From NCBI RefSeq assembly GCF_056746865.1, contig NZ_CM163382.1: 64,000 nt of DNA, one strand, 5' to 3'. A program made the position numbers. Shown in pieces: positions 45,001 through 48,000 of this stretch. Positions within the stretch are counted from its first letter, which is position 1, and each line of letters begins with the position of its first letter.

Positions 45001-48000
45001 GCGAGCTCACCGCGGCGGGAAGCAGGTGCGATTTTCGCGAAGGCATGCCCGTCACCACGTCGAAAAACAAAATCACCAGATTCTCCGCCTCTGACAGGCA
45101 ACCAGTCAGAATGCGATTCACCAAAAAAAATATTAGTTCGATTCAATGGAGGTTCCTTCAGTTTTCTGATGAAGCGCGAATATAGAGAAATATCCCGAAT
45201 GTGCAGTTAACGAATTCTTGCGGTTTCTTTCAGCGCCGCCAATACCGCCAGCCCGTCGCGCAAGGGGCGCGGCTCGTGTGTGCGGATGAAGTCAGCTCCA
45301 CCTGCGGCGGCGGCAAGCTCTGCAGCGAGTGTCGCGGCCCCGACATCCCCCGGACCACGGCCTGTGAGCGCGCGCAGAAAGGATTTGCGCGAAACAGACA
45401 GAAGCACCGGCAAATCGAAGCGCAGCCGCAATTCATCGAACCGCGCCAGCACCGAGAGCGAGGTTTCGGGAGCAGCCCCCAGAAAAAACCCCATGCCGGG
45501 ATCAAGGACAAGGCGGTTGCGTTTGATACCGGCTCCCGTCAGCGCCGCGATGCGCGCGTCAAAGAACGCCGCAATGTGATCCATGATGTCGCCAGCGGGT
45601 GCCTCGCGCCGATCTGCCTGCCCGTCTTGCACCGAATGCATAACGACGAGTTTGGCAGATGATTTCGCCAATTGCGGATAGAACGCAGCGTCTGGAAAAC
45701 CGCGAATATCATTGAGATAGGCCACACCACGCGACAAGGCATAGGCTTGCGTCGCGGGTTGATAACTGTCGAGCGAGACGGGAATGCCATCTGCCTTGAG
45801 CGCGTCCAGCACCGGCGCGATACGCGCGATTTCTGTGTCGGACGAAACAGGCGCGGCGTCGGGATTGCTGGATGCCGGACCGAGGTCGATCACATCTGCC
45901 CCCTCGGCCATCAGCTTACGCGCCTGCGCAATGGCTGCGTCTGGCGCCAGATACCGGCCTCCATCGGAGAAACTGTCCGAGGTTATGTTGACGATGCCGA
46001 AAATGATGAGCGATTTATTCATGGGGGCTTCTATAATAATAATAATCGAGCATGAGTCTCATACGGATGCTCGGGTCGAAAGGGAATCCCCAGGCGAGTA
46101 ACCTGTTTGCGGTGATCCATTAGCTGCAGGAGCAGAATAGCATACATCTGGAAGCAAAGCCAGGAAAGCGGCCTATGGAGCTGTGCGGCAGCGCTCAGTA
46201 GGCAATTTTTCAAAATATTGTTAAGCCTTTTCTGAGCATGGTATTTTTCATGGTATTACCAATTAGCAGGAAAATAAGCCATTGAATATAAAAGATAAAA
46301 ATGTCTTGTTTACAATAGAGTGGGTTTCCGGTGCTCCTTTGACACTCTCTCCATATCCCTCAGGTCCGGCACCAACAGATACCACGTTATTTTCTCCCGA
46401 CACCTGTGAGCCATGGCCCAGAGCTACAGAGCCTGAAGAATTTTCTATTCCAGCCCATCCCCCAATAGCAACACTCTGCTGTGAATTAAGTACCTCAGCG
46501 CTCTTACCTATGGCAACACCATATTTTGACTCAGCCTGACCGGCATCCCTTCCCAGGGTGACACTGTGTGGAGAATTATACACTCCCGAAAAAGAGCCAA
46601 ACTGAAGACTTCCTGGTGAATCCATGTTAAAAGCGCCACCTCCCAAAAGGAAAGTGTTATTAGCTGTACCAGTTGAATTCGTAATAAAAGAGTTTTCTCC
46701 AATCAGTAAGCTGGAAGAATTAGCATCAACAGGCCCTGTCAAAACAGCCTGAGCCTGAGCCGAGAGCAGCAGGGCCACACTCACTGCCAGCGCGCTTTTC
46801 TTTAAAAAAGCATCACGTCTTTTAAGCATTCTGTTATTCTCCTGTATTATTACTTCACCAGCCAGAACGGTAGTGCGGAGCAAAAATACAGTGATAAGAA
46901 TCCTCTTTTATTAATTTAATAATGCCAGGAATATTATTGTGTATAATATGCGACCTCAATTTAAGCAGCAGAAAACGACTGGCATTAAAATCATTAAATT
47001 ATAAACATATACAACTTTGTAAAGGTGGTTATAATAAACCTGATTACTTTAACGTCTGTATACCTGCACTGCTGATATCACAAAACAATAAAAATCCTGG
47101 TTAATATCTCTGATGATTGAATGAGAAATTCACGATGTCTGGTGAGAATTCTGTTCAAAACGAGGAATGCAGACGTACATGTGGCAGGCATGGACTTCTA
47201 CCAATTTAACTTTTTTCCTTCCTTGTATTTACACATTGCACATTTTGCGCTACAAAAATTTCACGTGGCACGCACCACGTGATCCGTAGAAAAGCCTCTT
47301 GTTACGAATTTCGTAAACCGCACGTCTGTCTGGTCGTGCGGATTTTTTATCCGTCAACTTCACATGAAACCCGCCAGAGCACTGTTTCCGGATTCAGACA
47401 TCAGGCATATTATTATCCACGATGTCGTGAACAAGATCACACTTTTGCAATTCCTTTATTGATCGAAAGCAGTTAATCACGGAAATTAATTACCGGAGTG
47501 AAAGCATTTGCTATATAAACATTCCCAGAAGACATCTTCATGTTGAATATTATTCCCTTATTGACTAGCCCCTCTGACAGAATTTCAGAGGGGGTTTTTT
47601 ATCAGTTTCACCATCCAACCCTGTACGCCAGAATGGTTTCACTGTCACTCAGTTCTGCTATTGCCTTTTTCATCTCCCTTTACCTTACGTTCTGCCAGAG
47701 TCTGAGCCATTTGAAAATAACATTATCATTGACGCCATTTTCACGTGCAATCTGTGCAACACAAGCTCCAGGTTGTGATGCCAGTTCCACCATACGAAGT
47801 TTGAATTCATTCGAATAGTTTTTACGAGGTTCTTTTCGCCAGTCCTGTAATTCCATACTTAGATGTCCGTCTATATCAGATGGGCGTCTAAGTTACCAAT
47901 TCTCGTCTGATGGCTACATACGGCGGTCAGTTTACGCTTACGATGGAAAGAGTCTTTCGCAGCCTTAAAAGTGAATGGTTTCCGAAAGGTGGTATGGTGA

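What the first reader, a model, noticed from the sequence alone, without database searches (positions are those of the whole stretch)
47200..47348. Strong intrinsic terminator with no upstream gene: possible small RNA or remnant
A CCGCACG…CGTGCGG hairpin followed by ATTTTTT (47318..47348) sits in a 1.4-kb region lacking credible ORFs. About 100 bp upstream are promoter-like elements (TTGTAT…TACAAAAAT) and a second palindrome, CACGTGGCACGCACCACGTG (47262..47281). Together these could define a transcript of about 70-100 nt, or they may be the 3' end of a gene destroyed by rearrangement.
Basis: seen in the sequence. Interest (0 to 1): 0.3.

Follow-up and report, generated by a model that had tools for sequence, protein, structure and literature searches.

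The report
Stacked boundary terminators beside prophage adhesin gene
The hairpin is a real transcription stop signal, but it most likely belongs to a two-way "stop block" left at the edge of an old prophage adhesin cassette in E. coli, not to a lost gene or a proven small RNA, so it is fairly ordinary.

Summary
CCGCACG/CGTGCGG plus ATTTTTT lies at 47318-47348 and CACGTGGCACGCACCACGTG at 47262-81. A third perfect palindrome, 47301-17, was missed.

Under strict criteria the 64-kb window has five terminators, against 0.3 expected. Three of them cluster here: T1(+), T2(+) at 47569-600, and the first palindrome read on the minus strand (HP1).

The window is E. coli accessory DNA. The 800-bp spacer lies upstream of a YadA-like trimeric autotransporter gene. 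That gene is cut by a sul2 resistance module. On its other side the spacer meets the IS-truncated 3' end of a tail-fibre-assembly gene (DUF4376 = orf-191 of Eib prophages).

All five Eib-type spacers examined carry a plus-strand terminator against the orf-191 stop codon. T1's 3' flank is a decayed copy of T2's flank.

Best reading: T1 is a fossil duplicate of that boundary terminator. With HP1 it forms a two-way insulator between the phage late operon or IS and the adhesin promoter.

A discrete sRNA is neither shown nor excluded:
- no Rfam family matches;
- it is not PapR;
- the candidate promoters are weak;
- no divergent homologues exist for a covariation test.

A destroyed plus-strand protein gene is not supported.

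The parts
47318..47348 (+). T1: Rho-independent terminator. 7-bp stem with 6 G-C pairs, 10-nt loop, then A + U6. This is the finding itself.
   Evidence: hairpin -13.2 kcal/mol. The hairpin does not vary in the 40 copies aligned; the only change in 47318-47348 is one extra T in the U-run of L011.
47301..47317 (.). HP2: perfect 8+1+8 palindrome GTTACGAATTTCGTAAC. It forms a weak hairpin (-3.6 kcal/mol).
47250..47282 (-). HP1 (47261-47282) plus the AAUUUUUGUAG tail (47260-47250). On the minus strand this reads as an intrinsic terminator.
   Evidence: -13.4 kcal/mol on the minus strand.
47349..47375 (-). Decayed copy of the last codons of an orf-191/DUF4376-type gene, next to T1.
   Evidence: the T1 3' flank aligns co-positionally with the T2 3' flank, 27 of 34 positions, and 9 of 1000 shuffles score as high. 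Searches agree.
47569..47600 (+). T2: second plus-strand terminator, CCCCTCTGA..TCAGAGGGG + GU6. Its stem ends 14 nt from the DUF4376 stop codon.
   Evidence: It is retained in all alleles despite nearby indels. Positional analogues occur in the five Eib-type spacers examined.
47608..47680 (-). 3' end of the tail-fibre-assembly gene (DUF4376 = orf-191 family), ending ...ELSDSETILAYRVGW*. It is cut by an IS.
47680..47856 (-). IS-family transposase orfA remnant. It forms the junction between the adhesin block and the block carrying the serine-protease autotransporter.
   Evidence: RefSeq annotation. Block boundary at 47683/47684.
46931..46959 (-). Best candidate promoter of the adhesin gene: TTGAGG-17-TAATAT.
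   Evidence: 11.6 bits, among the top 49 of about 128,000 positions. eibG needs only 168 bp of upstream sequence (bioRxiv 10.64898/2025.12.25.695649).
47008..47035 (+). Best candidate plus-strand promoter upstream of T1: TATACA-16-TATAAT. It would give an RNA of about 305 nt.
   Evidence: 9.6 bits, not significant on its own. The TTATAATAA core is kept in both diverged alleles.
46309..46829 (-). 5' part of the YadA-like trimeric autotransporter gene. It is truncated at about 46309 by the sul2 resistance module.

Best explanation
T1 (47318-47348) is a working-quality Rho-independent terminator for the plus strand. It is one of two stacked copies (T1 and T2) of the boundary terminator found in Eib-type lambdoid prophages, which sits against the stop codon of the tail-fibre-assembly gene orf-191/DUF4376 on the opposite strand.

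T1 kept about 30 nt of an older orf-191 3' end (47349-47375). This happened when module exchange placed the present orf-191 copy and T2 about 250 bp further out.

HP2 and HP1 sit beside T1, and HP1 is a terminator when read on the minus strand. Together the three hairpins form a block of about 100 bp, flanked by A5TT on one side and AT6 on the other, that stops transcription in both directions.
- Plus strand: RNA polymerase leaving the AT-rich adhesin control region is released at the U6 tract, with T2 as a backup. The candidate starts are 47008-35 and 47228-56.
- Minus strand: polymerase reading out of the phage late operon, here an IS-truncated remnant, is released at 47258-47254. This happens before it reaches the adhesin promoter (46959-46931).

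Shown: the structures, their non-random clustering, the Eib-type context, the positional recurrence of such terminators, and the T1/T2 flank similarity.

Inferred: in vivo termination, the direction and source of the transcripts, and the insulating role. Any RNA that ends at T1 would carry three 3' hairpins and could be stable, but a regulatory role for it is not supported by anything tested here.
For: - Structure and clustering: 3 of the 5 strict terminators in 64 kb lie within 350 bp, against 0.3 expected for the whole window.
- Context in 370 of 5426 E. coli genomes: always the 800-bp spacer between an IS or DUF4376 remnant and a YadA-like gene followed by a small sigma-region-4 HTH gene.
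- In strain TUM1886 the same spacer directly follows intact prophage tail-fibre and DUF4376 genes.
- DUF4376 is 57% identical to ORF-191A. The adhesin C-terminus is 57% identical to EibA. The HTH protein is weakly similar to ORF-156A.
- All five Eib-type spacers examined (EibA, EibC, EibD, PhiR5_1, GER2) have a plus-strand terminator against the orf-191 stop, with different hairpin sequences. EibA and PhiR5_1 have two.
- The T1 3' flank aligns co-positionally with the T2 3' flank (27 of 34 positions; 9 of 1000 shuffles as good). The two EibA terminators do the same (19 of 1000).
- Homology to other Eib spacers stops at about 47491-47596.
- The predicted adhesin promoter lies 300 bp beyond HP1, and eibG is expressed with only 168 bp of upstream sequence.
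- No coding signal was found.
Against: - There is no transcript data, so termination in either direction is unproven.
- The T1/T2 flank similarity is short (about 34 nt, p about 0.01) and partly rests on the shared T-tract.
- HP1 and HP2 have no counterpart next to T2 or in the other Eib spacers, so the 'composite block' may be specific to this cassette.
- The interval 47250-47413 has no common polymorphism in 40 copies, while its flanks carry two haplotypes. That is rough evidence (Poisson p about 0.004, ignoring linkage) for constraint beyond a mere fossil.
- A three-hairpin 3' domain ending in U6 is also what an Hfq- or ProQ-type sRNA looks like.
Confidence: 0.5

Rival explanations
1. An independent small-RNA gene on the plus strand. 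Transcription would start near 47263 (RNA of about 85 nt) or near 47042 (about 305 nt) and end at T1. The RNA would act in trans or on the adhesin cassette through its single-stranded linker AUCCGUAGAAAAGCCUCUU, stabilised by Hfq or ProQ.
For: - Strong terminator with a U6 tail preceded by two hairpins.
- 47250-47413 is essentially invariant in 40 copies, and the 121-nt core is at least 99% identical in all 370 genomes, while the whole spacer drops to 88.8%.
- No protein-coding signal.
- The plus-strand TATAAT at 47030-35 is kept in both diverged alleles.
Against: - No Rfam match at E up to 1.
- It is not PapR.
- The promoter candidates are no better than background.
- An 84-bp natural deletion removes the proximal promoter but keeps the hairpins.
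- The invariant block runs 65 nt past the terminator.
- The linker's duplex energy with the adhesin 5' region is average.
- The predicted long-range helix is broken in the second allele.
- No homologues exist outside these E. coli strains, so covariation cannot be tested.
Confidence: 0.2
2. The three perfect palindromes act as DNA rather than RNA. They would be operator sites for a dimeric regulator of the adhesin cassette, for example the ORF-156-like HTH protein encoded downstream, and the flanking A and T runs would be incidental.
For: - Three different perfect inverted repeats with 7-8-bp arms lie within 81 bp.
- HP2 has a 1-nt spacer, which is typical of an operator and poor as an RNA hairpin (-3.6 kcal/mol).
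- The block is invariant and lies in an adhesin upstream region.
Against: - The three palindromes share no half-site, so one regulator could not bind all of them.
- T1 and HP1 each have a correctly placed U-tract on the strand where they would terminate, which is unlikely by chance.
- The block is about 300 bp from the predicted promoter.
- The HTH protein has only a sigma region-4 domain.
Confidence: 0.08
3. T1 is the 3' end of a plus-strand protein-coding gene destroyed by rearrangement.
For: An orphan terminator in a mosaic region full of IS and resistance-module junctions.
Against: - The same non-coding sequence lies upstream of T1 in all 40 copies, including the intact prophage context.
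- None of the plus-strand ORFs of at least 28 aa tested matches PHROGs.
- The ORFs that end near T1 are frameshifted in L011, and their changes are mostly non-synonymous (my reading of the variant table).
- No match in the phage collection.
- Only about 360 bp separates the adhesin promoter from T1.
Confidence: 0.05

Closest known systems
Intrinsic (Rho-independent) terminators, including bidirectional or overlapping convergent terminators of enterobacteria (general knowledge, e.g. Ju et al. 2019, cited from memory)
   Same: G+C-rich hairpin immediately followed by a U-tract. An A-tract lies on the far side of the block, so the region can stop polymerases from both directions. It sits between convergently arriving transcription.
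   Different: This is not one hairpin flanked by A and U tracts. It is two separate one-way terminators in crossed order, with the minus-strand one on the left and the plus-strand one on the right, and a third palindrome between them. Terminated RNAs from the two strands would therefore overlap by about 95 nt.
orf-191-to-eib spacer of Eib prophages P-EibA, P-EibC and P-EibD of E. coli ECOR-9 (GenBank AF151091, AF151674, AF151675), and of phages PhiR5_1 and GER2
   Same: - Same gene order: tail fibre, orf-191 (DUF4376), spacer, trimeric autotransporter, small HTH protein.
- A plus-strand terminator abuts the orf-191 stop.
- EibA-type spacers also carry two stacked copies with similar flanks.
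   Different: - The spacer sequence left of about 47491 is unrelated.
- The covariance model finds no HP1-HP2-T1 block in those loci.
- The adhesin passenger domain is different; only the C-terminal 118 aa align with EibA.
- Here the phage has been reduced to a fragment inside a genomic island.
PapR, the Hfq-dependent island-encoded sRNA of UPEC UTI89 that represses papI (PMC4546395)
   Same: An accessory-genome non-coding locus with a Rho-independent terminator, found in a subset of pathogenic E. coli and linked to adhesin control. The window also carries papI/papB-like genes about 10 kb away.
   Different: PapR's cloning primers give its ends as GGGCTGAAGTCCGGAAGTT... and ...TCTCCCAGCGCGGGCTTTTTTT. 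These are unrelated to this locus, and the 5' end (the only one searched) is absent from the window. No 22-nt complementarity to anything in the window was found.
Phage morons: a promoter-gene-terminator unit inserted between phage genes (Hendrix/Juhala concept, cited from memory)
   Same: An adhesin cassette with its own predicted promoter, inserted after the tail-fibre genes and bracketed by terminators.
   Different: The terminators examined here lie upstream of the moron, and two of the three face away from it.

Membership tests
Rho-independent terminator | G+C-rich stem-loop followed within 0-2 nt by a U-tract | tested here: met
   7-bp stem with 6 G-C pairs, -13.2 kcal/mol, then A + U6. 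Sites of this quality number 5 per 64 kb, against 0.3 in shuffles.
Rho-independent terminator | Causes transcript release in vivo, downstream of a transcription unit | not testable with these tools
   No transcript data. The upstream plus-strand promoter candidates are weak.
Bidirectional / convergent terminator block | Termination signals valid on both strands, with transcription arriving from both sides | tested here: inconclusive
   T1(+) and HP1(-) both pass the strict scan. A minus-strand unit (tail-fibre/DUF4376 operon) is present in L011. The plus-strand unit is unidentified.
Trans-acting Hfq/ProQ-type sRNA gene | Own promoter giving a discrete primary transcript | tested here: inconclusive
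   TTTACA-17-TACAAA scores 7.3 bits and TATACA-16-TATAAT scores 9.6 bits. Both are within the background frequency for this window. The proximal candidate is deleted in L035.
Trans-acting Hfq/ProQ-type sRNA gene | Structure supported by covariation, and a seed conserved across species | not testable with these tools
   All 40 copies are essentially identical. None was found in 100,044 species-representative genomes.
Trans-acting Hfq/ProQ-type sRNA gene | Complementarity to a plausible target | tested here: not met
   Linker versus the adhesin 5' region gives -15.1 kcal/mol, against a background mean of -15.2. Only targets inside the window could be tested.
Any Rfam family | Covariance-model match | tested here: not met
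   cmscan of 44000-51000 at E up to 1 gave only a spurious ncr1575 hit on T2, 28.7 bits against a gathering threshold of 60.
PapR sRNA | Sequence identity to UTI89 PapR | tested here: not met
   The 5'-end primer sequence is absent from the window even with up to 3 mismatches.
Eib-type prophage adhesin cassette (context) | Gene order: orf-191/DUF4376 homologue, spacer, trimeric autotransporter with YadA anchor, ORF-156-like gene | tested here: met
   DUF4376 Pfam match at 2e-20 and 57% identity to ORF-191A. YadA_anchor at 2.9e-16 and 57% identity to the EibA C-terminus. HTH protein versus ORF-156A at E = 2e-4. Immunoglobulin binding was not tested.
Type I toxin-antitoxin (3'-overlapping pair) | Conserved small hydrophobic toxin ORF with a ribosome-binding site | tested here: not met
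   The 40-aa and 53-aa plus-strand ORFs and the 37-aa minus-strand ORF are frameshifted in L011 and show mostly non-synonymous change.

The most novel reading that the evidence does not exclude
The three-hairpin block is the shared 3' domain of a convergent RNA pair whose 3' ends overlap. One partner is a plus-strand small RNA ending at T1. The other is minus-strand read-through from the phage late operon or IS, ending at HP1. The roughly 95 nt of perfect complementarity would let the small RNA silence leak-through into the adhesin moron, for example through RNase III. Alternatively the small RNA could act in trans through Hfq or ProQ. Either way it would be a prophage-borne riboregulator carried by about 7% of E. 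coli.
Probability: 0.12. Interest if true: 0.45.

Novelty: new member of a known kind. Interest (0 to 1): 0.2.

Why it matters
If the main reading is right, its value is mostly for annotation. It explains an 'orphan' terminator as a module-boundary element. It also shows that exchanges at the tail-fibre/moron junction of Eib-type prophages leave stacked terminator copies, which could serve as a marker for reconstructing how adhesin cassettes moved between phages and islands. It also warns against calling sRNAs from terminator-plus-hairpin patterns alone in mosaic accessory DNA. If the minority reading is right, it would add an uncharacterised riboregulator next to an adhesin gene found in many avian, livestock and human E. 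coli isolates.

Tried and rejected
- **PapR identity:** the primers do not match.
- **Rfam:** no match.
- **Literature search for the exact hairpin sequences:** no papers.
- **Small ORFs, both strands:** no PHROG hits. The ORFs are frameshifted in L011 and non-synonymous changes dominate.
- **Type I toxin-antitoxin idea:** dropped for the same reasons.
- **A plus-strand 77-aa membrane-like ORF in the EibA spacer:** it loses its start codon and gains a 114-bp insertion in PhiR5_1.
- **Covariation:** impossible, because all copies are near-identical. The T1 pattern has no hit in the species-representative genomes. The adhesin protein has no relatives there, and the HTH protein occurs almost only in E. 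coli (one near-identical Salmonella record).
- **Viral and phage collections:** the IMG/VR hit is the same island, and the phage collection has no spacer match.
- **Long-range helix 47052-61 / 47167-76:** it looked compensatory in 12 sequences but is broken in the second allele and by one C/A case among 40.
- **sRNA-target pairing to the adhesin 5' region:** average energy.
- **Covariance model of the block:** no structural homologue in the window or in the Eib loci.
- **Adhesin 5'-UTR attenuator:** unlikely. The predicted promoter is 300 bp downstream of the block, and eibG needs only 168 bp upstream.
- **tblastn of ORF-191 proteins against the T1 flank:** only borderline hits. The nucleotide-level flank alignment was more informative.
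- **Sandt & Hill 2000:** the paper could not be read because it is not held.
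Full report
**1. The observation**

CCGCACG (47318-24) pairs with CGTGCGG (47335-41) across a 10-nt loop and is followed by ATTTTTT (47342-48). CACGTGGCACGCACCACGTG lies at 47262-81.

Two things were missed:
- a third perfect palindrome, GTTACGAATTTCGTAAC, at 47301-17;
- HP1 is followed on the minus strand by AAUUUUU, so the consensus scan calls it a minus-strand terminator.

The plus strand folds into three hairpins (-30.6 kcal/mol, z = -2.9). The minus strand folds equally well (-33.0 kcal/mol, z = -3.6).

A strict scan of my own required a perfect stem of at least 7 bp, at least 5 G-C pairs, a loop of 3-12, and at least 6 T in 8. It finds five sites in the whole 64 kb, against 0.3 +/- 0.5 in dinucleotide shuffles. 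Three of the five are T1(+), a second plus-strand terminator T2 at 47569-47600, and HP1(-), all within 350 bp. The structure is real and not a chance event.

**2. Where it lies**

The window is E. coli accessory DNA. The 800-bp stretch 46884-47680 occurs in 371 of 5426 complete genomes, always on the chromosome and sometimes in several copies.

- **Left side.** On the minus strand lies a YadA-like trimeric autotransporter gene with its ATG at 46829. In this window it is cut at about 46309 by a sul2-strA-strB-tetA-floR/ISCR2 module. In APEC IMT5155 and other strains it is intact (452-557 aa). It is followed there by a 151-aa protein with a sigma-70 region-4 HTH.
- **Right side.** There is a 176-bp transposase remnant (47680-47856). 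At 47683/47684 the window switches to an unrelated block that carries an S6-peptidase autotransporter.
- **Prophage context.** In strain TUM1886 the same spacer, 97% identical, directly follows intact prophage tail-fibre and DUF4376 genes.
- **Link to Eib prophages.** That DUF4376 gene matches orf-191 of the ECOR-9 Eib prophages at about 70% nucleotide and 57% protein identity. The adhesin C-terminus is 57% identical to EibA. The HTH protein is weakly similar to ORF-156A along its length.

The region is therefore a fragment of an Eib-type cassette: J, lom, stf, orf-191, spacer, adhesin, orf-156-like gene. It is now stranded in an island.

**3. Is it a known RNA?**

No.
- Rfam gives nothing at E up to 1 except a spurious sub-threshold hit on T2.
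- PapR, the island-encoded UPEC sRNA, was an obvious lead because papI/papB-like genes are nearby. Its primers give unrelated ends, and its 5' end is absent from the window.
- The hairpin sequences occur in no searchable paper.
- A covariance model of the block finds no second copy in the window or in six other Eib-type loci.

**4. Is it coding, or the end of a lost plus-strand gene?**

No support.
- None of the ORFs tested here (28-92 aa, both strands) matches PHROGs, apart from two weak hits (E = 0.02 and 0.25) for the 92-aa ORF that runs through T2.
- The ORFs that overlap the element are broken by single-base indels in the prophage copy L011.
- Substitutions between haplotypes are mostly non-synonymous (my reading of the variant tables).
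- The same non-coding sequence precedes T1 in all 40 copies examined.

**5. Conservation**

The 121-nt core is at least 99% identical in all 370 genomes, while the whole spacer falls to 88.8%.

In alignments of 12 and then 40 copies:
- 47250-47413 has no common polymorphism, only three singletons;
- 47175-47249 carries about 9 variable sites;
- 46976-47075 exists as two alleles only about 56% identical;
- 47509-47594 has indels.

At the background rate I would expect about 5.5 variable sites in the invariant block (Poisson p about 0.004). However, the variation is organised in recombination blocks, and other stretches of about 100 bp are also invariant. This is therefore only suggestive of constraint.

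Nothing more divergent exists for a covariation test:
- the T1 pattern has no hit in 100,044 species-representative genomes;
- the adhesin has no relatives there;
- the HTH protein is found almost only in E. coli, plus one near-identical Salmonella record;
- 26 metagenome contigs are all near-identical.

**6. Promoters**

A simple position-weight scan gives these results:
- The best signal is on the minus strand, TTGAGG-17-TAATAT at 46959-46931 (11.6 bits). That fits an adhesin promoter with a leader of about 95 nt. It is also consistent with the report that eibG is expressed from 168 bp of upstream DNA.
- The hairpin block lies 300 bp beyond that promoter, so it is not in the adhesin leader.
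- One metagenomic variant deletes 47178-47261, which removes the proximal candidate and the A5TT tract but keeps the hairpins.

**7. The comparative clue**

All five Eib-type spacers I examined have a plus-strand terminator set against the orf-191 stop codon. The hairpin sequences are unrelated, but the tail TTTTT(T)ATC is recurrent. EibA and PhiR5_1 have a second such terminator about 130 bp further in.

Homology between this spacer and the others ends at about 47491-47596, so T2 belongs to the phage module and T1 to the cassette-specific part.

T1's 3' flank (GGATTTTTTATCCGTCAACTTCACATGAAACCC) aligns co-positionally with T2's 3' flank (GGGTTTTTTATCAGTTTCACCATCCAACCC). The T2 flank is the reverse complement of the last codons of DUF4376.
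- 27 of 34 positions match.
- 9 of 1000 shuffles score as high.
- On the minus strand the T1 flank still reads ...ETVLWRV..., against ...ETILAYRVGW* for DUF4376.
- The two EibA terminators show the same relationship (19 of 1000 shuffles).

**8. Interpretation**

T1 is most simply an older copy of the boundary terminator that sits against orf-191. It was left behind, with a sliver of that gene, when a later exchange brought in the present orf-191 and T2.

With HP1 on the other strand, it makes a two-way stop between the late operon (or, here, the IS remnant) and the adhesin promoter. The order is crossed, with the minus-strand terminator on the left and the plus-strand one on the right. RNAs terminated from either side would therefore share about 95 nt of complementary 3' sequence. 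That leaves room for an antisense or sRNA role, which I cannot test.

My estimates are:

| Reading | Probability |
|---|---|
| Insulator / fossil boundary terminator | about 0.5 |
| Dedicated sRNA | about 0.2 |
| DNA operator sites | about 0.08 |
| Destroyed plus-strand gene | about 0.05 |

**9. Verdict**

The 'sRNA' interpretation is possible but unsupported. The 'remnant' interpretation is right only in a modified form: the remnant is of a minus-strand phage gene and lies beside the terminator, not upstream of it. This is a new instance of a known kind of element and of low to moderate interest.

Noticed in passing
window 46976-47075: A 100-bp block just upstream of the predicted adhesin promoter exists as two alleles only about 56% identical (24 versus 14 of the 38 sequences covering it). 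Its flanks are more than 95% identical. Both alleles keep TTATAATAA at 47029-47037. This could be a swapped regulatory region.
   Followed up: partly
window 46263-46829 (junction at about 46309): The YadA-like trimeric autotransporter gene is truncated by the sul2 end of a resistance module. The same junction is seen in several other genomes (L001, L009, L010).
   Followed up: yes
window about 37364-46022: A chromosomal multiresistance block inserted next to papI/papB-like genes. By mapping to RefSeq strain W2-5 it contains an ISCR2 fragment, a DUF3363 gene, floR (39158-40372), a LysR-family gene, tet(A) (40972-42171), tetR (42277-42927), aph(6)-Id (43507-44343), aph(3'')-Ib (44343-45146) and sul2 (45207-46022).
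   Followed up: partly
window 47683/47684, 47680-47856 and about 47900-48136: The window is a recombinant inside a transposase remnant. Left of 47683 it matches the adhesin island. Right of it, it matches at 100% a different block found in other strains. A second IS3-type orfB C-terminal fragment lies on the plus strand at about 47900-48136.
   Followed up: partly
window 48254-52129 (-): A 1291-aa ORF annotated in matching RefSeq genomes as an S6-family peptidase (serine-protease autotransporter). It is followed by AbgT transporter, ROK regulator and ABC transporter genes.
   Followed up: no
L035 (metagenome contig SKEX01002394.1), equivalent to window 47178-47261: An 84-bp deletion between the similar 12-mers CATGTGGCAGGC and CACGTGGCACGC. 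It could be a natural variant or an assembly artefact.
   Followed up: partly
window 47509-47534: A 26-bp indel polymorphism (present in 22 and absent in 18 of 40 copies) just upstream of T2. T2 itself is kept in every allele with small changes in stem length.
   Followed up: partly
L014 (P-EibA) 4853-4880 and 4982-5008; L017 (PhiR5_1) 2967-2990 and 3096-3120: EibA-type spacers also carry two stacked plus-strand terminators whose 3' flanks resemble each other (CCCCACTTTTTTTATCCCTGACAG versus CCCCTCTTTTTTTCACCTGTCAG). This suggests repeated duplication or exchange at the orf-191 boundary.
   Followed up: partly
L008 (AR_0085) 3956-4392 and other island copies: A frameshifted ProQ/FinO-family gene lies 0.1-6 kb to the right of the IS remnant in most island copies. 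It probably belongs to the CP4-like island backbone, and no link to the hairpin block was established.
   Followed up: no
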